Source of the DNA: a virus
Taxonomy: Duplodnaviria > Heunggongvirae > Uroviricota > Caudoviricetes
Reading direction: 5' to 3' (one strand)
IMG/VR virus record: IMGVR_UViG_2609459792_000007
Length of the DNA stretch: 64,000 nt
The translations under genes and the position numbers were made by a program. The notes under the pieces were generated by a model. It worked only from the letters and a program-made list of their open reading frames with translations, ran no database searches and was not told the origin of the DNA. This document shows positions 11,814 through 51,375 of this stretch, one piece after another. How positions within the stretch are numbered: position 1 is the first letter of the stretch; every line of letters starts with the position of its first letter.

Positions 11814-12494
11814 ATGGATGTAAAAATCACGATTTTGCAGGTTGATGTTGCCAACCTTCGCCCGAATACCTGGAACACCAATTCGGTTGGTGCGCAGAAT
11901 TTTGAAAAACTGAAAGGTTCTATCGAAAAATTGGGCTTTTTTAAGCCAATTTTGGCTCGTGAACTTGAAGATGGATTTTTTGAAATCCTCGGCGGCGAAC
12001 ATCGCTGGCGTGCTGCTATTGAGCAAGGAATTTCAACGGTTCCGGTGCTTTCTGTGGGCAAAATTAGCGATGTCGTAGCTAAACAGATGTCACTGGTGGA
12101 CAACGAGCGATACGGTGAAGACGACCAAATCGCATTGCAACGCTTCATTGAAGAAATTCAGTCAGAACTTGACTATCAACTGTCTGAAATCGCCCCGTAT
12201 GACGACGAAATCTCGATGGTTTTAGCAAAAGAGGCGGCAATCGACCTTGAAGCACTGGAGGCGTTGTCTCGTGGTAGTGATGAGCCTGTCGATACCGACA
12301 AACGAGAGAAAACCGAACGTGTGGGTGCGGAACATCAGACCATGCGCTTCAAAGTAACTTTCGATGCGTCAGATCGTGTTGCAGAAACCATAAAAAACAT
12401 CATCAAAGAGCAGGCTATTAACACCGGTAATGAAATGGAGAACGCTGGTGAGGCTCTGGTGTGGCTGGTCGACTACTACAAGGAGCGTATGTAA
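11814..12494 (+). CDS. ParB N-terminal domain (ParB/Srx-like) protein
   Basis: ILGGEHRWRAA motif typical of ParB-NTD; ATG 11814 (track start 11796). Confidence 0.7.
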   Translation: MDVKITILQVDVANLRPNTWNTNSVGAQNFEKLKGSIEKLGFFKPILARELEDGFFEILGGEHRWRAAIEQGISTVPVLSVGKISDVVAKQMSLVDNERYGEDDQIALQRFIEEIQSELDYQLSEIAPYDDEISMVLAKEAAIDLEALEALSRGSDEPVDTDKREKTERVGAEHQTMRFKVTFDASDRVAETIKNIIKEQAINTGNEMENAGEALVWLVDYYKERM

Positions 12495-13162
12495 TGACCA
12501 AAAAGTTTGAAATCGTATATCGCGACCCGGCAGATCTTATTCCCTATGAGATGAATGCCAAAAAGCATGATGAACAGCAGATCAGAGATCTGGCCGCAGC
12601 CATTAAAAAGCGCGGATTTGACCAGCCAATTACGGTCGATAAGAACGACGTAATTATTACTGGCCACGGCCGCCGTGAGGCTGCAATTTTTGCTGGACTT
12701 GAGCGCGTACCGGTTATTGTTCGCGATGATCTCAGTGATGACGAGGTTCGTGCGAAGCGCCTTGAAGATAACCGACTTGCCAGCATTGATTACGATGCAA
12801 TTAAGCTACAGAAAGAGCTTGAGTCGCTTGTTCTGGACGATATCGAGGTTTTCGGCTTTGAAGAGCGTGAGTTGAATGTTCTCGTTGGCAGTATGACAGA
12901 AGAAATGGACACCGACTCGCTAGTTATCGATCTTGGCGAAGAAACTAAACGACAGAAGGATGAACACACCGAGATCAGTCGTGAAGTTGCAGCGGAAGAA
13001 GTACGTGTTGTCGACGTATTGGGCTTTAAAACGCTCCCTGCTGGCTCTGCCATTGTTGTTGGTGATTTGCTTGCCCATATGGAAGAAATGACGGGAGAAA
13101 GCGGGGTAGACGCATTTGTGGCATATGCGGAGAAGATCTCTTCCGGGGAGATGGCTGCATGA
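12494..13162 (+). CDS. ParB N-terminal domain protein, second copy
   Basis: ITGHGRREAA motif; ATG 12494 overlaps upstream stop (TAATG); RBS aggagcg. Confidence 0.7.
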   Translation: MTKKFEIVYRDPADLIPYEMNAKKHDEQQIRDLAAAIKKRGFDQPITVDKNDVIITGHGRREAAIFAGLERVPVIVRDDLSDDEVRAKRLEDNRLASIDYDAIKLQKELESLVLDDIEVFGFEERELNVLVGSMTEEMDTDSLVIDLGEETKRQKDEHTEISREVAAEEVRVVDVLGFKTLPAGSAIVVGDLLAHMEEMTGESGVDAFVAYAEKISSGEMAA

Positions 13163-13824
13163 GCAAATACATCATCAACGTATCGTTTCAGACACGCGTA
13201 AATAAAACCACGCGCACGTTGGAAATCGCTGAGTCGTTCGGGCTTGGCCTGGACGAAAAAGAGTGGACGCTTTACGACAATCTGGAGCTGGAAGTGAAGC
13301 AGGGCGATGTGGTGTACATCACCGGCCAATCCGGTTCCGGCAAATCCGTTGTGCTGCGCGAGTTGCAACGACAGATGAAGGATGAAGGGCTGTCTGTAGC
13401 CTCCATCGATGATTTTACCTTCGATAATGAGGTTAACGTCATCGATCAGTTGGGCAAAACGACCAGTGATGCGCTTGGGTTGTTATCTATGGCTGGTCTG
13501 AACGATGCATATCTGTTTGTTCGCAAGCCTTCTGAAATGTCAGACGGCCAGAAATATCGTCTCAAGATTGCCAAACTGATTGAGTCAGGCGCTAAAGTAT
13601 GGGCTGCTGACGAGTTCGGCGCTGTTCTCGACCGTGTAACCGCTCAGGTTGTGGCGTCTAACCTCCAGCGTGCCGCGCGAAAGGTTGGTGCGACGGTAAT
13701 GGTGGCGACGACTCACGAAGACCTGAAGAACGCGCTGCGCCCGGATATGCAGATCACCAAGCACTACAAAGAACGCGTGAAGGTGGAATATCACAATGGT
13801 AGTCATGATGAGGTCCATTCATGA
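13159..13824 (+). CDS. minimal ABC-type ATPase
   Basis: Walker A GQSGSGKS, signature-like MSDGQKYRL, Walker B VWAADEFG, H-loop ATTHE. Confidence 0.7.
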   Translation: MSKYIINVSFQTRVNKTTRTLEIAESFGLGLDEKEWTLYDNLELEVKQGDVVYITGQSGSGKSVVLRELQRQMKDEGLSVASIDDFTFDNEVNVIDQLGKTTSDALGLLSMAGLNDAYLFVRKPSEMSDGQKYRLKIAKLIESGAKVWAADEFGAVLDRVTAQVVASNLQRAARKVGATVMVATTHEDLKNALRPDMQITKHYKERVKVEYHNGSHDEVHS

Positions 13825-14711
13825 CGGACATCATCATTAAACGCTACCGCCCTGAAGAGTTTCCGCGTCATCTGGACTTTCTGGAGCGAATGACTGTTAC
13901 AAAGGGAACTGTAGAGGACTGGCACGCTCTTAAGTCGCTTCACTACAAAACAGACGGCAAACCTTTCGCGCCAACTTACTATCGCTGCGAACTTGATGAC
14001 CGTCTGGTGGGCGTCGTGGTTATGGCTTACCCGAAACTACTGTTGGCACCTCGCCACCGCATGTTTCCTAAGTTGAAACCAACCACTAATACCACCGTGG
14101 CTAACCAGTACTGGGGTCGGTACGTGAATAACAACTTTGCGGTGATCAGTCGCTCAGTTGTGGATACTCAGTATCGTGGCGTAGGCGTCTCTTATCGAAT
14201 GATTAACCTGGTTAGCAGGATGCATGACCGGCCAATCATTGAGATCCAGTCCTCGATGAGCAAATACAATCCCTTCGCCATGAAAGCAGGGTTTAAGTTC
14301 ATCCGCCCTGAGCGACCGAAGAGCTATGAAAGTGCACTGCGTGTGTTCCAGCGCCATTTCCGCTCCGACCCGGGTGATAACGAGGCGATCGTCAAAGAGT
14401 TGTTCGCTATGAGCGAGTCTCGTCGTCGCCGTGCGCTGCGCGATTTGGTGGCGGACTACCATAAGAACAGTTCCCTGGCAAAAGCTGGGCGGAATCGTGG
14501 CACGACGATTCAGGACATTGCCGACAGTCTGGTGGACGAGGCCAGCATTGTGAAGCTGCTCAAGGACATTCACAACCTGAGCTTTACGTCTCCGTTGTAT
14601 GGTGTGTACCGAAACCCTGACTTTGGCCGTCGACTGCCTGACACGCTGCCACTGCTGGCATTCGACAAACAACCTTTGGATAAACCGTTAGAAATTGCTT
14701 TACCAGCATAA
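13821..14711 (+). CDS. hypothetical protein, possible acetyltransferase-like fold
   Basis: Translationally coupled to ATPase; segment VVDTQYRGVGVSYRMI resembles GNAT motif A (weak). Confidence 0.5.
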   Translation: MTDIIIKRYRPEEFPRHLDFLERMTVTKGTVEDWHALKSLHYKTDGKPFAPTYYRCELDDRLVGVVVMAYPKLLLAPRHRMFPKLKPTTNTTVANQYWGRYVNNNFAVISRSVVDTQYRGVGVSYRMINLVSRMHDRPIIEIQSSMSKYNPFAMKAGFKFIRPERPKSYESALRVFQRHFRSDPGDNEAIVKELFAMSESRRRRALRDLVADYHKNSSLAKAGRNRGTTIQDIADSLVDEASIVKLLKDIHNLSFTSPLYGVYRNPDFGRRLPDTLPLLAFDKQPLDKPLEIALPA

Positions 14712-14720
14712 GGATTTGCC

Positions 14721-14987
14721 ATGACGTTAACCGACAAACAAAAGGACATCATCAAAACGCTCAATCTCGGTTATGAGCGAGGTCATCTACTTGACCTGGA
14801 CGAATTGCTTGAAGTTTTGCCGTACAAGACAACCAAGCAAAGTATCCAGTTCTCAATTCGCGCTCTGATAAAAAAGGGGCTGGTGGAGAAAGGGCATACG
14901 CGCCAACGCAGTGACAATCGCTATCACCGCCGGACTCTTGGGTTAACCACTTTAGGTCGAGCCAAAGCGAAGTTACTGGTGATGTAA
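14721..14987 (+). CDS. putative winged-helix DNA-binding protein
   Basis: 88-aa basic protein; helix-turn-wing-like segment SIQFSIRALIKKGLVEKGH. Confidence 0.45.
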   Translation: MTLTDKQKDIIKTLNLGYERGHLLDLDELLEVLPYKTTKQSIQFSIRALIKKGLVEKGHTRQRSDNRYHRRTLGLTTLGRAKAKLLVM

Positions 14988-15011: not shown

Positions 15012-15066
15012 CCTGCATCTGTATATATAAATAATAAGTAACTTATTAAATATATACGGAAGCAGG
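15012..15066. repeat. 55-bp imperfect palindromic element, copy 1
   Basis: cctgcatctgtatatataaataataagtaacttattaaatatatacggaagcagg; near-identical copy at 47817-47871. Confidence 0.8.
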
Positions 15067-44383: not shown

Positions 44384-44560
44384 CAGAAGAGGAGTTTTCT
44401 AACATAAAATTTGCATATTATTAGAGCACAAGGTAGATTTGGCACATGGATGTCAAGTAAATCATCCCTTGCATTAATGCTGCGACGCATACTCGTAGCC
44501 TCTAAACCCTGACAAGGGTCGCCGCTATGACATTAAGTTAATACCGGCTAAGGTGGACAC

Positions 44561-44944
44561 ATGCTGAACGAAAAACGTTCTATACAAACAATTCGCGATT
44601 GCACGAGTGTTATCGCAACTCATGTGCTGAATAAGCGCAAACTTGAGGTGCGTAAACTTAACAACGATGCGACTGCGCCAAAAGACACTCGCTTCATCGT
44701 AACTTTCAAAGACGATGTTGAGAATGCTGGTGCCAGTGTAAAACCGTTGGCTGAAGCGATTTTCCTGAACGATCGTGTTCGTTTCATTGTGAAGCCAGCA
44801 AAACAATACCCTGAATTAGCACGGTTTAGTGACCAATTCTCTGAAATTATTGAGAGTGCAATTCGCCGCTTTCTTAATACTCATGGTAGCATTGTCAGCA
44901 ATACAACTGCTGATGGTACTGCTCTAAGATGGCACCTACACTAG
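44561..44944 (+). CDS. hypothetical protein
   Basis: ORF with RBS aaggtggacacATG. Confidence 0.5.
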   Translation: MLNEKRSIQTIRDCTSVIATHVLNKRKLEVRKLNNDATAPKDTRFIVTFKDDVENAGASVKPLAEAIFLNDRVRFIVKPAKQYPELARFSDQFSEIIESAIRRFLNTHGSIVSNTTADGTALRWHLH

Positions 44945-45681
44945 AACGCACATACTCTAAAAATCTTTATGAGTTTCCTCACCGTGGGGAAACTCGCGTT
45001 TCACGTTTTGGCTACCTCATCAACGAAGCATCGCTTTTCAAAATATCTGAAATAACCATTATCGAGCCTGATGATGATATCTGTCTGTATATCCTGATGG
45101 AGAAAGTTGGAGCACGAGATCAGGGTGAACTGATGGACTTCATTCTGGACAGAGGCGAAGATGGAATGTCTGATTCGGACATTATTCAAGCAATTCTGCG
45201 TTCCGACATGCTCGATCAGAGCAGAAACACGATAGCAGGCAGAATTGCATTGCGTGAATACACATTCATCGAGGATGGGGTAGAGATTGACTGCTATCAG
45301 ATTGCAGGTGTTGAAACAGAAAGAGCAATAAGGCAAAGGGGACTGTGCAACCTCACGTATCGCTTCCTCCTTCATTGGTACGAACATCTTGTCTGTGATT
45401 ACAATCAGACCATTCCTGGCGCAAAAATCTGGGCCGGTCCATTAATGCGAACAGGTGATGTAAGAATTTACAACGCAAAAACTGAGACGTTCGAGGATGT
45501 GTTAGGCGAATATGGGATGGGAAAAGAAACCGGCTTTTTGCCGTGGAACAGAGGATTGTTACTTGATCCAGAATTAAGCTCTTGGTTTCCAAATAAGGTG
45601 CAAGTTAACGTTGAGAAATTTATCGTACTTATCATCTCCCGCAAAACAAGAACCCCAGTTGGTTTATATCTAAAAGATTAA
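44929..45681 (+). CDS. hypothetical protein (250 aa)
   Basis: ORF followed by terminator. Confidence 0.55.
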   Translation: MAPTLERTYSKNLYEFPHRGETRVSRFGYLINEASLFKISEITIIEPDDDICLYILMEKVGARDQGELMDFILDRGEDGMSDSDIIQAILRSDMLDQSRNTIAGRIALREYTFIEDGVEIDCYQIAGVETERAIRQRGLCNLTYRFLLHWYEHLVCDYNQTIPGAKIWAGPLMRTGDVRIYNAKTETFEDVLGEYGMGKETGFLPWNRGLLLDPELSSWFPNKVQVNVEKFIVLIISRKTRTPVGLYLKD

Positions 45682-45685
45682 CAAT

Positions 45686-45708
45686 TAGGCGACTTCTGTC
45701 GCCTTTTT
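45686..45708 (+). terminator. rho-independent terminator
   Basis: aggcgac-ttct-gtcgcct followed by tttttt. Confidence 0.8.
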
Positions 45709-45807
45709 TGTTAACAGCCATTGATTCTCGCCTAAAAATTCTAAGGCAGCACCTACCATTTAACCTTTACACAGCAGCCGTAGGCATTTAGGCTATATCA
45801 CATATAA

Positions 45808-45857: not shown

Positions 45858-46526
45858 ATGACCAAGATCTTTGTGGTTGGCGGCACAAAGGGCGGGCCTG
45901 GCAAATCCACCGTTGCCCAGCAAATTGCCGTTTGCCTGAAAGTCAAAAAGAAGAAGAAGGTTTATATCACTGATATAGATATTCAGCGCACGACAACAAG
46001 CTGGTGTGAAGACCGTCGACAGAACGAAGACCTTGAGCTGATTCCTTTTGCATACGTTCAGGATGACATCATTAAGCACCTAAAATCGCTTCAGGGTAGA
46101 GCTGAGTTTGTAGTGGTAGATGCTGGTGGCTTTGACTCCGAAATTCAGCGACAAGCGATGCTGATGGCCGACGTTATCATTATCCCGCTTCGTCCTAAGC
46201 GTCGTGATTTGAAATCTCTGCGTGACATCGATCCTATTATCGACAATGTTCGTAATGTAAACGATAAAGTGAAGGTCCGCGCGGTCATGAACCAGTGCCC
46301 GGCTTTGCCATCACAAGTGTCTCGCATTCTGGCGGCTAAAGAGATTGTCGAGACGTTTGGCATCGAGTCTGCGCCAGTCAATCTATATAACCGCAACGTC
46401 TACGATGATGCGGAAGAGTCAGGTCGTTCTATCTTTGAAATGACCGGTAGCGAGCGCGACAAAAAGGCGGAAGCCGAGTTTGAAGAATTTGTAGATTATC
46501 TGTTGAGTCTGGAGGAAGAAGAATAA
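45858..46526 (+). CDS. ParA/MinD-family partition ATPase (small type)
   Basis: Deviant Walker A GGTKGGPGKST; about 220 aa. Confidence 0.8.
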   Translation: MTKIFVVGGTKGGPGKSTVAQQIAVCLKVKKKKKVYITDIDIQRTTTSWCEDRRQNEDLELIPFAYVQDDIIKHLKSLQGRAEFVVVDAGGFDSEIQRQAMLMADVIIIPLRPKRRDLKSLRDIDPIIDNVRNVNDKVKVRAVMNQCPALPSQVSRILAAKEIVETFGIESAPVNLYNRNVYDDAEESGRSIFEMTGSERDKKAEAEFEEFVDYLLSLEEEE

Positions 46527-46885
46527 TGTCCATGAAAATGGGTGACCTAGCAAAGCGCAAAGAGCCTGATGCACCGGCTAAGAACACAACTCCTTTGCGC
46601 CAACCAGTCAGACCACAAGGACGCCCGACTCGTGGCAAAGAGAAAATTAAAAGCCGCACTATGTCACTGGAAGACGAATACTTCGAGCTTCTGGAAATGA
46701 TGAAGTTTATCCCTCGTTTCGAGAAGTTCACCCGCTCTGATGTGATTCGTGCTGCTATTTTCCATCTGGCAGAGAAGTCACCGCAGGAAATCGAGGACAT
46801 CGTGAAACTTAACGAGGCGATCACCGCTGCCGATGTCACGATGCGTACCGATGAAATCAAACGAGAGTTGATGAAGAAAGGTTAA
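46526..46885 (+). CDS. putative partition centromere-binding protein
   Basis: Coupled to ParA-like gene (ATGTCCATG overlap); basic N-terminus and ribbon-helix-helix-like C-terminal half. Confidence 0.5.
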   Translation: MSMKMGDLAKRKEPDAPAKNTTPLRQPVRPQGRPTRGKEKIKSRTMSLEDEYFELLEMMKFIPRFEKFTRSDVIRAAIFHLAEKSPQEIEDIVKLNEAITAADVTMRTDEIKRELMKKG

Positions 46886-46890
46886 AAATC

Positions 46891-46921
46891 ATGCATTGGC
46901 GCGTACATTGCGCCAATGCAT
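46891..46921. repeat. perfect 12-bp inverted repeat atgcattggcgc-N7-gcgccaatgcat
   Basis: Directly downstream of partition operon, between convergent genes. Confidence 0.7.
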
Positions 46922-46937
46922 AACTACAGTGTCAGCT

Positions 46938-47705
46938 TTATGCCGCGCTAACACTATGTTCAGTCCTAACCACCCCAACCTTCACAAAAGGGCTACCGTA
47001 GCTTGGTGGCTTCTTGATTAATTTGCCTACATACAGTTTTCTAATATGCTCATCGGCTATTCTGCCAACAAATTCATATCGTTTTGTGTCGGGGCCAAGA
47101 GCTATATCCCTTGTAAAGTACTGCTGAGAACCGGCTTTGACCCAGCATTCAATCTGATAAACTTCCATTATTAGCCCACCATATGTAGCGTAGGCATATT
47201 TGAGATTCTCGTCTCTTGGAACCTTTGCCCATACGCCACGCGTAGCTTCATATAATGCCAGAGCGGACATTCCTGATTTGTAGGTGCTGTTTAGCAGGAA
47301 GGCAAGACCGGCGTGCTCAGGAGCAATTTCAGTTTCCTCTTGCAGCACTAAGTGATGGTAGGCGTCCAGTGATATTCTGCCCATCATGGAACCACTTCCT
47401 CGAACCTTATTCGTAAGCTCTCCGACCCCCATAAGGTCGATGCATGTCGCCTCAACAAGTTTGGCTGTGGTTTCATCCATACCATGACGAAGAATATCTA
47501 TGCCTAATTTTTTATTAGCCAAAAGTTCTTTGATCCGCATGGATTTGGGAGAGTCATCGGGATACTTGATGTGATCGAGACAACGAGTCGATTTGCCTTT
47601 TCCTATGTAAAACGGTCTTTTCATCTTGTCTTCTGTATCATAGAGACAGTAAACATAGTATTTAGCCTTATCCAAGGATCTCGCGTATACCGATAAATCG
47701 TCCAT
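46938..47705 (-). CDS. GIY-YIG nuclease domain protein
   Basis: N-terminal YYVYCLY ... FYIGKGK motif. Confidence 0.6.
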   Translation of the reverse strand: MDDLSVYARSLDKAKYYVYCLYDTEDKMKRPFYIGKGKSTRCLDHIKYPDDSPKSMRIKELLANKKLGIDILRHGMDETTAKLVEATCIDLMGVGELTNKVRGSGSMMGRISLDAYHHLVLQEETEIAPEHAGLAFLLNSTYKSGMSALALYEATRGVWAKVPRDENLKYAYATYGGLIMEVYQIECWVKAGSQQYFTRDIALGPDTKRYEFVGRIADEHIRKLYVGKLIKKPPSYGSPFVKVGVVRTEHSVSAA

Positions 47706-47816
47706 TATTGCATCTCTTAGCTACTGACTAATGCGTTCTATTTTACACATAAGTTTTTAATCAATTTAACAGGCTCAAAGTGTAGAGCTTCTGGGCGTCT
47801 AAGACGACAAGTTATG

Positions 47817-47871
47817 CCTGCTTCTGTATATATAAATAATAAGTAACTTATTAAATATATACGGAAGCAGG
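47817..47871. repeat. 55-bp imperfect palindromic element, copy 2
   Basis: Identical to copy at 15012 except one base (cctgcTtctg vs cctgcAtctg). Confidence 0.8.
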
Positions 47872-47952
47872 TCTTTTAAAAGACACCACCAGAACAACTC
47901 CCTTCCGTTTCCACTTCCAAAAACTGCCACCAGTCGCTATCATCCGCTCATT

Positions 47953-47976
47953 GTGATAAGTAAGTAACTACCTACC
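47953..47976. promoter_or_regulatory. family B motif GATAAGTAAGTAAC
   Basis: About 25 nt upstream of the 47988 gene. Confidence 0.45.
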
Positions 47977-47987
47977 AGGTGAGCCAC

Positions 47988-48728
47988 ATGAGCCAAATCT
48001 TTTTCGATACCATCGACAACGACCAGTACGACTTCATGACAGAGTGGAATACCGCTGTTATGGACAAGTGGGTCGCTGAAAACATTGGTTTGTCGCGCTG
48101 TAAAGACGAGGCTGAACTCTTCGAGACGAAGTGGTTTGATTACCGCGACATGCATCCTCTCATGGCCACCTGTCTTTTTACGGAGGCATACAAACGTCAG
48201 TACTCAAATATCATGCTGACGCACGGTCGCGAACACTTTGAAACAGCTCCGTTCACCACCGGGTTAAAACGCCTGCCTTATCAGGAGTTGTCGACTGCCA
48301 ATAAAACGTCGCTATGGAAAGCACGCCAGTTTGCGGATCGCTATTGCTGCTCATACGACTATTTTATCTCCACCGTTCTTTCCGCAGCTGCACGACGGCT
48401 GTGGGACAAGCTGCCGCGCCCACAGCATTTATGGCAGCCAGAGCTGGTTGAGATATTCGAAGAGAAATTAGCCAGACGCGCAACAACCCGTCTGGATGAC
48501 TCTCTGGTTAGTTTTAAGCATATGGGAGACATGCAGTTCAACCCGATTCAGGAAAGCTATTTTGAGTGGATTCTGGAGCGTTTACGCGCCATCCCCCGCA
48601 GCAAGCGCATACGCGCAATTTTCTCCGCTATCTGGCTAATGGAAATCGTTCCAGAGCGCCTTATTTCCGCCCACTTTCCAGAAGAACTGGAAGAAGCACG
48701 GCGGTTTATTGATCCCCTATCTAATTAA
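47988..48728 (+). CDS. hypothetical protein upstream of replicative helicase
   Basis: ATG 47988 with RBS aggtgag; position suggests a replication accessory role. Confidence 0.55.
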   Translation: MSQIFFDTIDNDQYDFMTEWNTAVMDKWVAENIGLSRCKDEAELFETKWFDYRDMHPLMATCLFTEAYKRQYSNIMLTHGREHFETAPFTTGLKRLPYQELSTANKTSLWKARQFADRYCCSYDYFISTVLSAAARRLWDKLPRPQHLWQPELVEIFEEKLARRATTRLDDSLVSFKHMGDMQFNPIQESYFEWILERLRAIPRSKRIRAIFSAIWLMEIVPERLISAHFPEELEEARRFIDPLSN

Positions 48729-48771: not shown

Positions 48772-50112
48772 ATGACCGAACTTTGCCATACAGGACGCGG
48801 GCTGTCCGAAGAGTTTGATGAAGATTTCCAGAACAGACTGACGGCATATTTTTGTCGTGATCACGAGTTTCTTACTCGTGCGGGAGATCTGGTTGTGCCT
48901 AGCCAATTTGCCAATGCGGCCAATGCCATATTGGTTAATATGGTTTCGGGCTATTACCGTATGTACAAGAGCGCGCCCTCTTCATCTGCAATTCTGGATA
49001 TGCTTAAGCGTGCGAAACGCGATAAGACTATCCGTGAGGAACTATTCGCCGATGTTGTTGCTGCGTTTAAGCGCATCCTTGCAGAAAAATTGTCCGATAC
49101 CTCGTACATGGTTGACCAGGTATCAACCTTCGCAAAAAGCGTAGCGTTTGATGATGCTCTGATTAAGGCTGCTGAACTGAAAGAGAAAGGCGACTTTCAG
49201 GGGGCGATGGCAATCATGGCCAAGGTTCAGCAGATTGGATCGAACGAAGCGACCGGAATCTATGACTACTACACCTCCGCAAGTGAGCGATTGAAAGCGC
49301 GTGAATATGAGGCTTCAGAGGAGTATGTGCCAAACAGCATTACAACTGGACTCCCTCTGCTCGATAGGTTGCTGTACCAAAAAGGCTGGGCGAAGCGTGA
49401 AATGGTGCTCTTCATGGGGTTCGCTAAATCCGGTAAATCGACCGCAATGGGTGAGTTTTCCATAAACGCAACGCTTGCTGGCTACAATGTTCTGTATCTC
49501 TCGCTGGAGGTTCACACCAACATTTTGTCCGACCGTTTTGATGCAAGATTGTCGGAGACGGAAATGTCCAAGTTGGTGGAACGGCGCGATGAAGTTCATC
49601 GTAAGTTGGCAGAGTTGGGAGCCTCTAAGGGGATTGGTAGTTTGTGGGTTGTTGAGCGTCCGTCAGGAAGTATGTCACCGGCAGATCTGGACCGTATGCT
49701 TAACAGCATGAAAGCCAACGGCATGGTGCCTGACATGGTTGTTGTCGACTACGCAGATTTGATGCGTGCCAGTTATGACCTTCGTGATGATCGCGCCAAC
49801 ATTCGTAGTATCTACACCGATTTACGTGCTCTTTATGACAAGCATAACGTTGCTGGTATCACGGCGTCGCAAACAAACCGTGAAGGTGGCGCGTCAGAAG
49901 TTGCCACAATGATGCACGCTGCCGACAACATCGAAAAAGTACGTATTGCTGACCTGGTAATAACGATCAACAAAACCGAAGAAGAAGAAGCGAAAGGAGA
50001 GGCTCGTCTCTACTTTGCTGGTTCGCGTAACCAGCAGGGAGGGATCAGCATTCGCGTTAAACAAAACCTCGAACAAATGCGCTTCATTGAGCGGATCTTA
50101 GACGTTACCTAA
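48772..50112 (+). CDS. DnaB-family replicative helicase
   Basis: RecA-like C-terminal domain with Walker A GFAKSGKST and Walker B VVVDYADLM. Confidence 0.75.
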   Translation: MTELCHTGRGLSEEFDEDFQNRLTAYFCRDHEFLTRAGDLVVPSQFANAANAILVNMVSGYYRMYKSAPSSSAILDMLKRAKRDKTIREELFADVVAAFKRILAEKLSDTSYMVDQVSTFAKSVAFDDALIKAAELKEKGDFQGAMAIMAKVQQIGSNEATGIYDYYTSASERLKAREYEASEEYVPNSITTGLPLLDRLLYQKGWAKREMVLFMGFAKSGKSTAMGEFSINATLAGYNVLYLSLEVHTNILSDRFDARLSETEMSKLVERRDEVHRKLAELGASKGIGSLWVVERPSGSMSPADLDRMLNSMKANGMVPDMVVVDYADLMRASYDLRDDRANIRSIYTDLRALYDKHNVAGITASQTNREGGASEVATMMHAADNIEKVRIADLVITINKTEEEEAKGEARLYFAGSRNQQGGISIRVKQNLEQMRFIERILDVT

Positions 50113-50121
50113 AAAATAAGC

Positions 50122-51375
50122 GTGGAGAACACCTCCACGCTTGATTCATTGGTGAAACAACTTTTCTTTTGCCAAACCACAAAAGAAAAACACATGAGCC
50201 TTTATGTTATATCAACATTTAGGTTGGTCACAATATTGCCTGTTAAAAGTGGAATTATCGTGAGCGAGCTGAAAGAGCTAATTACCGAATTAGATTTTGA
50301 ACAATGGTTGGACACTGAAGGTATCGTTTATCGACGTGGAGGCGTGAGTGCTCGCGGTCGTGAAGTGAATATCAAGGAGTGTCCGGTATGCGGCAGCTCC
50401 AACTGGAAGGTATATTTCAATCTGACCAGTGGCGTCGGCAAATGCTTTGCTGGTGATCATCCCGAAGAGATTCAGTTCAATAAGCTGGTCTTCCTCAAGC
50501 ACTACAGCGGTAAATCACGACGACAGTTCGAGGAATATGTGCAGAACGCTCTTCTTTCCCAGGGGTGGGCACCAAAGAAAGAAGAGCTAGTGCTTGCAAG
50601 CACAGTCGAGTTAGAGGGGCCAGTTGCACTCCCTCGTCATTACGAGCTTCCTATAGATGGCCGTCTTCCAGACTATCTGGTTGAACGAAACATATCACCT
50701 GAAATGGCAAAGTATTTTGACCTACGATACTGCGTCGAAGGCAAGCACGCTTATGTAGATCCGTATACAGATCAGGTAAAAGGGCAGATATTCGATATGC
50801 GAGTACTGATACCGGTTTACGATCTGGATGGGGTAATGAAGACATTTCAGGGACGAGACATTACCGGTACAGCAGAACGCCGCTACCTCTTTCCTATGCA
50901 GCTTCCAGCTTCAGGTAAATTTCTCTACAACGGCCATAATGCAGTCGGCAAACAGACTGTAGTTGTCTGTGAGGGTGCGTTCGATGTTATGGGGGTCAAA
51001 CGAGCTATTTTCGACGAAGAAACATTACGTGATTACGTGGAGCCAATAGGAACGTTCGGGATGCATCTATCTGGTAACACCACTCAGGATGCAGAAGATC
51101 AGTTAGGCGCGTTCCTGACGCTCAAGGCGCGTGGGTTACGTAATGTGATCATGATGTGGGATAGTGAAAAGCAAGCTATACGCAACACTATGGCCGCAGC
51201 CAGGCGACTGACCAGTATCGGTCTTAATGTCAAAGTTGCGTGTTTGGGTGAGGAAGGACTCGACCCGGGCGGTGCAACGCCAGAACAAATTATCAAAGCC
51301 TATTATCGGGCAAAACCGTATACCAAACAGTTGGAGTTGCAAAGCAAGGTTTTGGGCATTAAGGCGCTATCGTAA
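50122..51375 (+). CDS. DNA primase (zinc-binding plus TOPRIM)
   Basis: CPVCGSS...KCF zinc-ribbon-like segment and TOPRIM-like VVVCEGAFD; start codon uncertain. Confidence 0.7.
   Translation: MENTSTLDSLVKQLFFCQTTKEKHMSLYVISTFRLVTILPVKSGIIVSELKELITELDFEQWLDTEGIVYRRGGVSARGREVNIKECPVCGSSNWKVYFNLTSGVGKCFAGDHPEEIQFNKLVFLKHYSGKSRRQFEEYVQNALLSQGWAPKKEELVLASTVELEGPVALPRHYELPIDGRLPDYLVERNISPEMAKYFDLRYCVEGKHAYVDPYTDQVKGQIFDMRVLIPVYDLDGVMKTFQGRDITGTAERRYLFPMQLPASGKFLYNGHNAVGKQTVVVCEGAFDVMGVKRAIFDEETLRDYVEPIGTFGMHLSGNTTQDAEDQLGAFLTLKARGLRNVIMMWDSEKQAIRNTMAAARRLTSIGLNVKVACLGEEGLDPGGATPEQIIKAYYRAKPYTKQLELQSKVLGIKALS

What the first reader, a model, noticed from the sequence alone, without database searches (positions are those of the whole stretch)
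46938..47705. Free-standing GIY-YIG nuclease gene between partition and replication modules
A minus-strand GIY-YIG protein interrupts otherwise plus-strand modules and lies next to one copy of the 55-bp palindrome. It may be a homing-endonuclease-like insertion or a nuclease with a defence or anti-defence role.
Basis: partly seen in the sequence, partly recalled or inferred. Interest (0 to 1): 0.4.

Follow-up and report, generated by a model that had tools for sequence, protein, structure and literature searches.

The report
Phage-plasmid gene that cuts modified phage DNA
The minus-strand GIY-YIG gene is a diverged relative of the known anti-phage enzyme PD-T4-3/CMoRE, which cuts the chemically modified DNA of T4-like phages, and it sits in a swap-in/swap-out cargo slot of an SSU5-like phage-plasmid, so it is an ordinary defence gene rather than a homing endonuclease.

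Summary
A 255-aa minus-strand ORF (46938-47705) with a GIY-YIG domain lies between plus-strand parA/parB-like genes and the replication genes, 111 bp from a 55-bp palindrome.

The protein matches PD-T4-3/CMoRE, a solved single-gene type IV restriction enzyme for 5hmC/glucosyl-5hmC DNA, over both domains:
- PADLOC E=1e-23.
- phmmer against PDB 9U7U, E=2e-15.
- hhalign probability 99.3%.

The catalytic residues are kept. The acidic autoinhibitory loop is 5 aa shorter and keeps 2 of its 4 acidic residues.

The window is an E. coli SSU5/pSLy3-like phage-plasmid. The gene belongs to a 933-bp cassette (46884-47816). Relatives carry unrelated cargo, or nothing, between the same two boundaries: the parB-like stop codon and the palindrome's left arm. 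Alternatives include DUF2971/PDC-S31, KAP NTPase/PDC-S49 and unknown genes.

The palindrome is backbone. It is present in every relative read, with or without the gene.

The cassette is 98% identical in a backbone that is only 80-92% identical, so it has moved horizontally.

Defence role: supported. Homing endonuclease or palindrome cutter: not supported. A DefenseFinder survey already lists PD-T4-3 in SSU5 phage-plasmids, so novelty is low.

The parts
46938..47705 (-). [quoted passage not shown]
   Evidence: ORF. PADLOC PD-T4-3 E=1.3e-23, aa 11-231. phmmer against PDB 9U7U/9U75 E=2e-15, aa 12-230. hhalign probability 99.3%, 34% identity over 208 columns. Foldseek top 4 hits are PD-T4-3 structures, E=5e-12. 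phrog_5356 E=1e-99. PGAP names it 'LEM-3-like GIY-YIG domain-containing protein'.
47397..47672 (-). [quoted passage not shown] The alpha2-alpha3 loop is short (Y48-S52)
46971..47378 (-). C-terminal domain (about aa 110-245), homologous to the CMoRE modification-sensing domain
46887..46925 (-). Hairpin just after the gene's stop codon. It has a 12-bp perfect stem (46891-46902 / 46910-46921) and a 7-nt loop, and is followed on the minus-strand RNA by a run of U whose template overlaps the parB-like stop codon. It is a likely intrinsic terminator of the cassette
   Evidence: Inverted repeat I5. RNA fold -25.1 kcal/mol, z=-4.8. The simple terminator scan did not list it. Every alternative cargo carries its own, different GC-rich hairpin at this position.
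47706..47816 (-). 111-bp cassette-specific upstream region (presumed promoter and RBS of the nuclease gene)
   Evidence: It belongs to the variable cassette, because homology with relatives carrying other cargo resumes only at 47817. It contains AAGAG about 8 nt before the ATG and a -10-like TAAAAT. No consensus sigma-70 match was found, so the promoter is inferred, not shown.
46884..47816 (.). The exchangeable cassette as a whole (933 bp): terminator hairpin, CDS and upstream region
   Evidence: Breakpoints against Cyrano, SSU5, CMS-2020a/SCU-175, AnCo3 and five further plasmids. Present in 136 of 469 related PLSDB plasmids and in 107 of 5426 complete E. coli genomes, all on plasmids. It is 98.0% identical in a backbone that is 80-92% identical.
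46526..46885 (+). 119-aa gene in the parB position. Its stop codon is the left boundary of the slot (conserved backbone)
   Evidence: phrog_5111, function unknown. No Pfam hit. 'parB-like' is inferred only from its position after ParA.
47817..47871 (.). 55-bp palindrome. Its left arm is the right boundary of the slot (conserved backbone, not part of the cassette)
   Evidence: Present at the same position in all 11 relatives read, including the empty-slot plasmid AnCo3, pHCM2 and a Klebsiella plasmid.
15012..15066 (.). Second copy of the palindrome (1 mismatch), between an 88-aa ORF and the terminase-like genes

Best explanation
The gene encodes a PD-T4-3/CMoRE-family enzyme. [quoted passage not shown] Its C-terminal domain binds hypermodified bases in incoming phage DNA; in the characterised members these are 5-hydroxymethyl- and glucosyl-hydroxymethyl-cytosine. 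Its N-terminal GIY-YIG domain then cuts that DNA. The unmodified DNA of the host and of the phage-plasmid is spared.

The gene is carried as a self-contained 933-bp cassette with its own upstream region and terminator. The cassette sits in a fixed cargo slot of an SSU5/pSLy3-like phage-plasmid, between the stop codon of the parB-position gene and a conserved 55-bp palindrome. Its likely role is to protect the lysogen, and so the phage-plasmid, from T-even-type phages. The cassette is probably exchanged among phage-plasmids by homologous recombination in the conserved flanks.

Shown here: homology over both domains, conservation of catalytic residues, slot architecture, alternative cargos and horizontal spread. 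Inferred: nuclease activity, substrate specificity, the defence phenotype and the exchange mechanism.
For: Family assignment:
- PADLOC PD-T4-3 E=1.3e-23.
- phmmer against solved CMoRE structures 9U7U/9U75, E=2e-15 over aa 12-230.
- 35% identity overall, 40% in the N domain and 31% in the C domain.
- hhalign probability 99.3%.
- Y17/Y19/Y33/R41/E85/N99 align with the CMoRE catalytic residues and are invariant in homologues.

Family function, from the literature:
- CMoRE degrades 5hmC/5ghmC DNA and protects against T2/T4/T6 by a direct, non-abortive mechanism (PMC12923530).
- A 48%-identical Capnocytophaga homologue behaves the same way and also cuts Mu DNA (PMC12366544).
- PD-T4-3 is active in a native E. 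coli host (10.1101/2024.12.20.629700).
- DefenseFinder reports PD-T4-3 in SSU5-group phage-plasmids of E. coli and Shigella (10.1101/2025.09.12.675607).

Hotspot:
- Boundaries are identical in all relatives.
- Alternative cargos include candidate defence genes PDC-S31/DUF2971 and PDC-S49/KAP NTPase.
- One relative has an empty slot.
- The cassette is 98% identical against a backbone that is 80-92% identical.
- The gene is under purifying selection.
- Solo homologues in chromosomes have no methyltransferase partner, as expected for a type IV enzyme.
Against: Identity to the characterised enzymes is only 35%, and no member of this sub-clade is known to have been tested.

The acidic autoinhibitory loop that CMoRE uses as a safety catch is 5 residues shorter here and keeps only D50-D51 of the four consecutive acidic residues. 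The same holds for most near relatives. Specificity and self-control may therefore differ from CMoRE.

The residue equivalent to CMoRE Y127 is L121. Y127's main-chain oxygen contacts the 5-hydroxyl group. L121 lies in a poorly conserved segment, so conservation of the binding site cannot be judged.

No consensus promoter was found upstream. NCBIfam has no model for the protein, and PGAP names it only by its domain.
Confidence: 0.78

Rival explanations
1. It is a defence nuclease of the same family but with a different trigger. The short-loop clade would recognise another DNA hypermodification (for example the Mu mom adenine modification, arabinosyl-hmC or other base modifications), or would control self-toxicity by another route than the acidic loop.
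For: The loop is 5 aa shorter and has 2 rather than 4 consecutive acidic residues. Of the nearest full-length representatives, 83 of 107 share the short form and none has a run of 4 acidic residues. The C domain is only 31% identical to CMoRE. PD-T4-3Capno already shows plasticity, cutting both T4 and Mu DNA.
Against: The overall architecture, the catalytic residues and the C-domain fold are conserved. The paper states that only 'most', not all, family members have the acidic loop. DefenseFinder and PADLOC both class the protein as PD-T4-3.
Confidence: 0.15
2. It is a free-standing GIY-YIG homing endonuclease. It would cut phage-plasmids that lack it, at or near the parB/palindrome junction, and copy itself in by recombinational repair.
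For: Presence is patchy at one intergenic site between conserved genes. The cassette is more conserved than the backbone, and identity falls away with distance from the slot: 98%, then 90-92%, then 80-84%. That pattern resembles co-conversion. Distant two-domain homologues in jumbo phages have been annotated by depositors as 'putative homing nuclease'.
Against: The C-terminal half is the CMoRE sensing domain, and Pfam finds no NUMOD, zinc-finger or HTH module as in I-TevI or the Seg proteins. Non-nuclease cargos (DUF2971, KAP NTPase and unknowns) occupy the same slot with identical boundaries, so ordinary flank recombination explains the pattern. Close homologues are solo chromosomal genes among housekeeping genes. 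Characterised family members show no sequence-specific cutting of unmodified DNA.
Confidence: 0.04
3. It is a nuclease that acts on the 55-bp palindrome or another phage-plasmid structure, for replication, partition or resolution, or it is an addiction or anti-defence factor.
For: Only proximity: the palindrome lies 111 bp upstream of the gene.
Against: The palindrome is conserved in all relatives, including those with other cargo or none. A second copy lies 33 kb away. About 70% of related plasmids lack the gene, so it cannot be needed for maintenance. No antitoxin-like partner gene is present. There is no similarity to known anti-defence proteins.
Confidence: 0.03

Closest known systems
CMoRE / PD-T4-3 (E. 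coli O157:H7 and APEC O1; PDB 9U75, 9U7U; Liu et al., Nat Commun 2026, PMC12923530; first found by Vassallo et al. 2022, PMC9519451)
   Same: It is a single gene of about 255 aa with an N-terminal GIY-YIG domain and the three-tyrosine 'GIYxY-YIG' motif. The catalytic Arg, Glu and Asn are kept, and the C-terminal sensing domain is homologous. It is the best hit by sequence, by profile and by fold.
   Different: Identity is only 35%. The alpha2-alpha3 acidic 'safety-catch' loop is 5 aa shorter, with P-D-D-S in place of D-D-D-E. L96 of the dimer interface is Cys here. It is carried on a phage-plasmid cassette. Its activity is untested.
PD-T4-3Capno (Capnocytophaga homologue; Rodriguez-Rodriguez et al. 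2025, PMC12366544)
   Same: It is a diverged family member that still gives modification-dependent defence. This shows that the function survives large sequence divergence.
   Different: It also cuts Mu DNA.
Other type IV enzymes built as a modified-base reader plus a nuclease (PvuRts1I/AbaSI family, VcaM4I, McrBC, GmrSD; named from general knowledge)
   Different: They use different nuclease folds (HNH or PD-(D/E)XK rather than GIY-YIG). Similarity between the reader domains is only marginal.
Defence-gene hotspots of temperate phages and satellites (P2/P4 hotspots; for example PMC13586616)
   Same: There is a fixed slot between conserved core genes, filled by many unrelated single- or few-gene cargos that include known and candidate defence systems. 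Cargo is shared across diverged backbones.
   Different: The element is an SSU5/pSLy3-type phage-plasmid. The slot lies between the partition operon and a conserved palindrome upstream of the replication genes. I found no description of this particular slot in the searched literature.
Free-standing GIY-YIG homing endonucleases (I-TevI, T4 SegA-G)
   Different: There is no homing-type DNA-binding domain. The C domain is a modification sensor. The slot is shared with non-nuclease cargo.

Membership tests
CMoRE / PD-T4-3 type IV restriction endonuclease | Single-gene, two-domain architecture: N-terminal GIY-YIG nuclease plus C-terminal modification-sensing domain, about 250-260 aa | tested here: met
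   The alignment covers aa 12-230 of 255 against 9U7U residues 17-243. hhalign probability 99.3% over 208 columns. Foldseek aligns 260-270 columns to 9u75/9u7u. There is no partner gene in the cassette or next to chromosomal homologues.
CMoRE / PD-T4-3 type IV restriction endonuclease | 'GIYxY-YIG' motif (Y17, Y19, Y31) and catalytic Arg and Glu | tested here: met
   Y17, Y19, Y33, R41 and E85 (plus N99) align with the CMoRE residues. They are invariant in 30 homologues and kept in 104 of 107 representatives.
CMoRE / PD-T4-3 type IV restriction endonuclease | Inserted negatively charged alpha2-alpha3 loop with four consecutive acidic residues (autoinhibitory safety catch). The paper says 'most' members have it | tested here: not met
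   There is a 5-residue deletion, and CMoRE D52-D53-D54-E55 corresponds to P49-D50-D51-S52. The short form is shared by 83 of the 107 nearest representatives, and none has a run of 4 acidic residues.
CMoRE / PD-T4-3 type IV restriction endonuclease | C-terminal domain homologous to the CMoRE 5hmC-binding domain | tested here: met
   [not shown]
CMoRE / PD-T4-3 type IV restriction endonuclease | Recognised by the family's defence-annotation model | tested here: met
   PADLOC PDLC04031 PD-T4-3, E=1.3e-23, 81.9 bits, profile positions 11-238 of 256. DefenseFinder calls PD-T4-3 in SSU5 phage-plasmids of E. coli and Shigella.
CMoRE / PD-T4-3 type IV restriction endonuclease | Tetramer through the intra-dimer interface (V92/L96) and the beta1-beta2 loop | tested here: inconclusive
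   V92 corresponds to V84 and is conserved. L96 corresponds to C88. The beta1-beta2 loop is 2 aa longer. No multimer model was made.
CMoRE / PD-T4-3 type IV restriction endonuclease | Cleaves 5hmC/5ghmC DNA but not C or 5mC DNA, and protects against T-even phages without abortive infection | not testable with these tools
   This needs plaque assays and in vitro digests.
Free-standing GIY-YIG homing endonuclease (I-TevI / Seg type) | GIY-YIG catalytic domain | tested here: met
   [not shown]
Free-standing GIY-YIG homing endonuclease (I-TevI / Seg type) | C-terminal modular DNA-binding region (NUMOD, zinc finger, HTH) that targets a long site in the endonuclease-less allele | tested here: not met
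   No such Pfam domain was found at E<=1. The C-terminal half is the CMoRE sensing domain.
Free-standing GIY-YIG homing endonuclease (I-TevI / Seg type) | Presence/absence polymorphism explained by the nuclease's own cleavage of the vacant site | tested here: inconclusive
   The polymorphism exists. However, the same boundaries hold for non-nuclease cargos, so the nuclease is not needed to explain it. Cleavage of the vacant site cannot be tested here.
Defence/cargo hotspot of a temperate mobile element | Fixed slot between conserved core features, with several unrelated alternative cargos that include defence genes, and cargo shared across diverged backbones | tested here: met
   Boundaries are identical in 11 relatives. 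Cargos seen: PD-T4-3-like, DUF2971/PDC-S31, KAP NTPase/PDC-S49, phrog_22329, phrog_1353, phrog_22270 with phrog_17322, stacked cargo in pHCM2, and empty. The cassette is 98% identical against a backbone that is 80-92% identical.

The most novel reading that the evidence does not exclude
The window protein may represent a large, untested 'short-loop' branch of the CMoRE/PD-T4-3 family. This branch lacks the four-residue acidic safety catch that keeps CMoRE from cutting ordinary DNA. It would then have to avoid self-damage by another mechanism, or read a different set of DNA hypermodifications. In addition, the gap between the partition operon and the conserved palindrome of SSU5-supergroup phage-plasmids may be a dedicated, sharply bounded exchange site for single-gene immunity cassettes. 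The palindrome could then be more than a passive boundary, for example a centromere or operator that also promotes recombination or insulates cargo transcription.
Probability: 0.2. Interest if true: 0.5.

Novelty: new member of a known kind. Interest (0 to 1): 0.25.

Why it matters
The result assigns a concrete, testable function to a gene that genome annotation calls only 'LEM-3-like GIY-YIG domain-containing protein'. The gene is found in about 2% of complete E. coli genomes, always on SSU5-like phage-plasmids.

It implies that these widespread phage-plasmids give their hosts resistance to T-even-type phages. That is relevant to phage therapy and to the ecology of clinically important E. coli and Shigella lineages.

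It also maps a precise cargo slot where other, still unknown genes are good candidates for new defence functions. One example is the 352-aa phrog_22329 protein, present in 139 plasmids.

The shortened autoinhibitory loop offers a natural experiment on how this enzyme family avoids cutting self DNA.

None of this overturns current understanding. The family, its mechanism and its presence in SSU5 phage-plasmids are already published.

Tried and rejected
- NCBIfam gave no family for the protein.
- The consensus promoter and terminator scans of 46400-48100 found nothing. Folding the minus-strand RNA nevertheless shows a strong hairpin followed by a run of U. The promoter remains inferred.
- The 31-bp hairpin at 46891-46921 is unique in the window. 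It is not the '55-bp palindrome', which lies on the other side of the gene at 47817-47871.
- Homing endonuclease: rejected on domain architecture and on the shared slot boundaries with non-nuclease cargo.
- Palindrome as the nuclease's target or as part of the cassette: rejected, because the palindrome is conserved in relatives without the gene.
- PADLOC and Pfam scans of the flanking backbone genes and of the two ORFs in the neighbouring variable region gave nothing informative. These were the 119-aa gene, the 249-aa gene, and the ORFs at 44561-44944 and 44929-45681.
- PHROG hits for all alternative cargos are 'unknown function'.
- The literature search for a description of this specific slot in SSU5-like phage-plasmids found only general statements about plastic loci and antibiotic-resistance hotspots.
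- I did not check whether the phage-plasmid encodes any DNA-hypermodification genes. Stable carriage in more than 130 plasmids argues that the enzyme and its carrier are compatible.

Full report
**1.
- The window contains a 255-aa ORF on the minus strand at 46938-47705.
- It is flanked on the plus strand by a ParA-type ATPase (45858-46526; Pfam MipZ/ParA) and a 119-aa gene in the parB position (46526-46885).
- Downstream lie a 249-aa gene (47979-48728), a DnaB-like helicase (48772-50112) and a primase (50122-51375).
- Pfam finds a LEM-3-like GIY-YIG domain at aa 32-104, E=5.5e-7, above the gathering score.
- The '55-bp palindrome' is at 47817-47871, 111 bp upstream of the gene's start codon. 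A second copy with one mismatch is at 15012-15066. None is expected by chance.
- A separate 12-bp-stem hairpin (46891-46921) lies between the convergent stop codons of the parB-position gene and the nuclease gene.

**2. What the element is.** The 3-kb neighbourhood is 98% identical to Escherichia phages CMS-2020a and PhiR41_1. It matches more than 460 PLSDB plasmids of Escherichia, Enterobacter, Salmonella, Klebsiella and Citrobacter, nearly all non-mobilizable; the seven fetched records that carry a replicon type are IncFIB, and two others carry only rep-cluster labels. Salmonella phage SSU5 and pHCM2 are more distant relatives. The window is therefore part of an SSU5/pSLy3-type phage-plasmid of E. 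coli.

**3. What the protein is.**
- PADLOC assigns it to PD-T4-3 (E=1.3e-23, aa 11-231).
- PD-T4-3 was found in a functional selection in E. coli (PMC9519451). It has since been characterised biochemically and structurally as CMoRE (PMC12923530).
- CMoRE is a single-protein type IV restriction endonuclease. Its C-terminal domain binds 5hmC or glucosyl-5hmC, and its N-terminal GIY-YIG domain cuts at CN11/N9G. It protects against T2, T4 and T6 without abortive infection.
- A 48%-identical Capnocytophaga homologue behaves the same way and also degrades Mu DNA (PMC12366544).
- The system is active in its native E. coli host NILS69.
- phmmer against all PDB sequences returns only the CMoRE entries (9U7U/9U7Z and 9U75/9U8D), E=2e-15, covering aa 12-230 and therefore both domains.
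- Identity is 35% overall, 40% in the N domain and 31% in the C domain. A profile of 30 homologues aligns to the CMoRE sequence with 99.3% probability.
- The low global TM-score (about 0.37) probably reflects a different relative orientation of the two domains. The CMoRE linker is disordered in the crystals, and the predicted linker here has pLDDT below 50.

**4. Residue-level check.**
- With the 5-residue tag offset of the PDB chains, CMoRE Y17, Y19, Y31, R39, R80 and V92 correspond to Y17, Y19, Y33, R41, R73 and V84 here.
- E85 and N99 align with the Glu and Asn of the GIY-YIG core.
- All of these are invariant in 30 homologues and kept in 104 of 107 more distant representatives.
- One described family feature is not kept, the acidic alpha2-alpha3 loop. 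Its four consecutive acidic residues act as an autoinhibitory safety catch, and the 4A mutant cuts ordinary DNA and is toxic.
- Here the loop is five residues shorter, and D-D-D-E is replaced by P-D-D-S.
- This is a clade property. Of the 107 nearest full-length 50%-cluster representatives, 83 have the short form and none has four acidic residues in a row.
- The paper itself says only that 'most' members have the loop. I therefore treat this as a variant within the family, with unknown consequences for specificity or self-control.

**5. The locus is a cargo slot.**
- Homology between the window and relatives that lack the gene stops at 46883, inside the stop codon of the parB-position gene. 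It resumes at 47817, the first base of the palindrome.
- The same two boundaries hold in every relative read:

| Relative | Cargo in the slot |
|---|---|
| Phage Cyrano | One DUF2971 gene, PADLOC candidate PDC-S31 |
| SSU5 | Two unknown genes plus DUF2971 |
| CMS-2020a/SCU-175 and p20170902CC-1 | 564-aa KAP-family NTPase, PDC-S49 |
| pE16EC0562-7 and a Klebsiella plasmid | 352-aa minus-strand gene, phrog_22329 |
| pF404-2 | 225-aa minus-strand gene, phrog_1353 |
| A Cronobacter plasmid | Two unknown genes |
| pHCM2 | DUF2971 plus the 351-aa gene, stacked |
| Salmonella plasmid AnCo3 | Empty, a 30-bp spacer |

- Each cargo brings its own GC-rich hairpin directly after the parB-position stop codon.
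- In the window, that hairpin followed by a run of U on the minus-strand RNA (-25.1 kcal/mol, z=-4.8) looks like the terminator of the nuclease gene.
- The unit 46884-47816 is therefore a self-contained cassette of upstream region, CDS and terminator.

**6. Distribution and mobility.**
- The cassette occurs in 136 of about 469 related PLSDB plasmids. Of these, 134 are Escherichia, and identity is at least 97.8%.
- It occurs in 107 of 5426 complete E. coli genomes, always on plasmids and never on a chromosome.
- Other cargos are rarer in Escherichia or commoner elsewhere: phrog_22329 139 records, DUF2971 (Cyrano type) 26, KAP NTPase 23, phrog_1353 13.
- In plasmid CP099103 the cassette is 98.0% identical to the window's. 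The backbone is much less similar: parA 84.4%, the 249-aa gene 84.5% and dnaB 79.8%. The immediate flanks are intermediate at 90-92%.
- The cassette has therefore moved between diverged backbones, most simply by homologous recombination in the flanks.
- The three alleles read in relatives each differ from the window's by 5-8 synonymous codon changes and 1 non-synonymous change, and all are intact.
- Close chromosomal homologues (75-79% identity) are solo genes among housekeeping genes, with no methyltransferase partner. That fits a type IV enzyme.

**7.
- A defence role is supported.
- The homing-endonuclease reading is not. The C-terminal half is a modification sensor rather than a homing-type DNA-binding module. 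Non-nuclease cargos share the same boundaries. Characterised relatives do not cut unmodified DNA in a sequence-specific way.
- The identity gradient around the slot is what homing would produce, but ordinary recombinational exchange produces it too, so it does not discriminate.
- Depositors have labelled distant two-domain homologues in jumbo phages as 'putative homing nuclease'. Those labels are guesses.
- The palindrome is backbone. It is present at the same place in all relatives, including those with other cargo, with none, and in pHCM2 and Klebsiella plasmids. It has a second copy 33 kb away. Its nearness to the gene follows from where the slot lies.

**8. Novelty.** A survey of phage-plasmids in UK clinical isolates already lists PD-T4-3 among DefenseFinder hits in SSU5-group phage-plasmids of E. 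coli and Shigella (10.1101/2025.09.12.675607). The family's mechanism is published. Three things are added here:
- The exact cassette and slot anatomy.
- The catalogue of alternative cargos.
- The observation that this protein belongs to a large short-loop branch that, as far as I could find, has not been tested.

I found no description of this particular slot in the searched literature. I rate the finding as a new member of a known kind, with low to moderate interest.

**9. Limits.**
- Activity, substrate range and phenotype are inferred from homology at 35% identity.
- The promoter is not demonstrated.
- 'parB-like' rests only on gene position.
- The function of the palindrome is open: centromere, operator, origin or insulator.
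- Cargo counts come from megablast and so undercount diverged versions.

Noticed in passing
window 47817-47871 and 15012-15066; L016 6663-6718; L017 5877-5929: The 55-bp palindrome is conserved across the SSU5 supergroup at the same position, between the cargo slot and the replication genes. The outer arms CCTG(C/T)TTC(C/T)GTATAT are conserved, and the AT-rich centre varies in length (about 51-57 bp). The second copy sits just upstream of the terminase-like genes. In the window it is followed directly by a 14-bp palindrome, GTCTTTTAAAAGAC. Its function is not resolved: centromere, operator, origin or insulator.
   Followed up: partly
window about 44450-45750: There is a second variable slot between the lysis genes and parA. 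The window has 127-aa and 250-aa ORFs of unknown function (phrog_2594, phrog_3307; no Pfam or PADLOC hit). Cyrano has a KacT-type toxin and antitoxin there, a Cronobacter plasmid has a HEPN protein, a Klebsiella plasmid has a helix-hairpin-helix protein, and pHCM2 has a 183-aa gene.
   Followed up: partly
L006 1396-2454 (-); L017 4689-5747 (-); L016 5500-6555 (-): The most widespread occupant of the same slot is a 352-aa minus-strand gene (phrog_22329) with no Pfam or PADLOC match. It is present in 139 PLSDB plasmids of Klebsiella, Salmonella (including pHCM2) and Escherichia at 75-100% identity. Its position makes it a candidate unknown defence gene.
   Followed up: partly
[not shown]
   Followed up: partly
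protein aa 46-57 (window 47535-47570, -): Short alpha2-alpha3 loops without a run of four acidic residues are the rule among the nearest 107 full-length representatives of the family (83 are short, and none has a run of 4). The family has 1781 representatives at E<=1e-3. The autoinhibition model drawn from CMoRE may not apply to this branch.
   Followed up: partly
phage records such as NC_048792.1 6439-7125 and NC_048668.1 214767-215453: Distant two-domain homologues (about 28% identity over aa 12-236) occur in Serratia, Pectobacterium and Klebsiella jumbo phages of 250-280 kb. Some are annotated as homing nucleases. They could serve in competition between phages.
   Followed up: no
window 12461-14987: Upstream of the second palindrome copy lies a block of four genes: a ParB_N-domain protein (12461-13162), an ABC-type ATPase (13159-13824), a 296-aa protein and an 88-aa protein (phrog_900). 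Small-terminase-like and large-terminase genes follow the palindrome.
   Followed up: no
NZ_CP107722.1 72064-72505: A 142-kb E. coli plasmid keeps only the 3' part of the parB-position gene plus the first 156 bp of the cassette (the hairpin and the 3' end of the nuclease gene). This indicates decay or replacement of the cassette.
   Followed up: no
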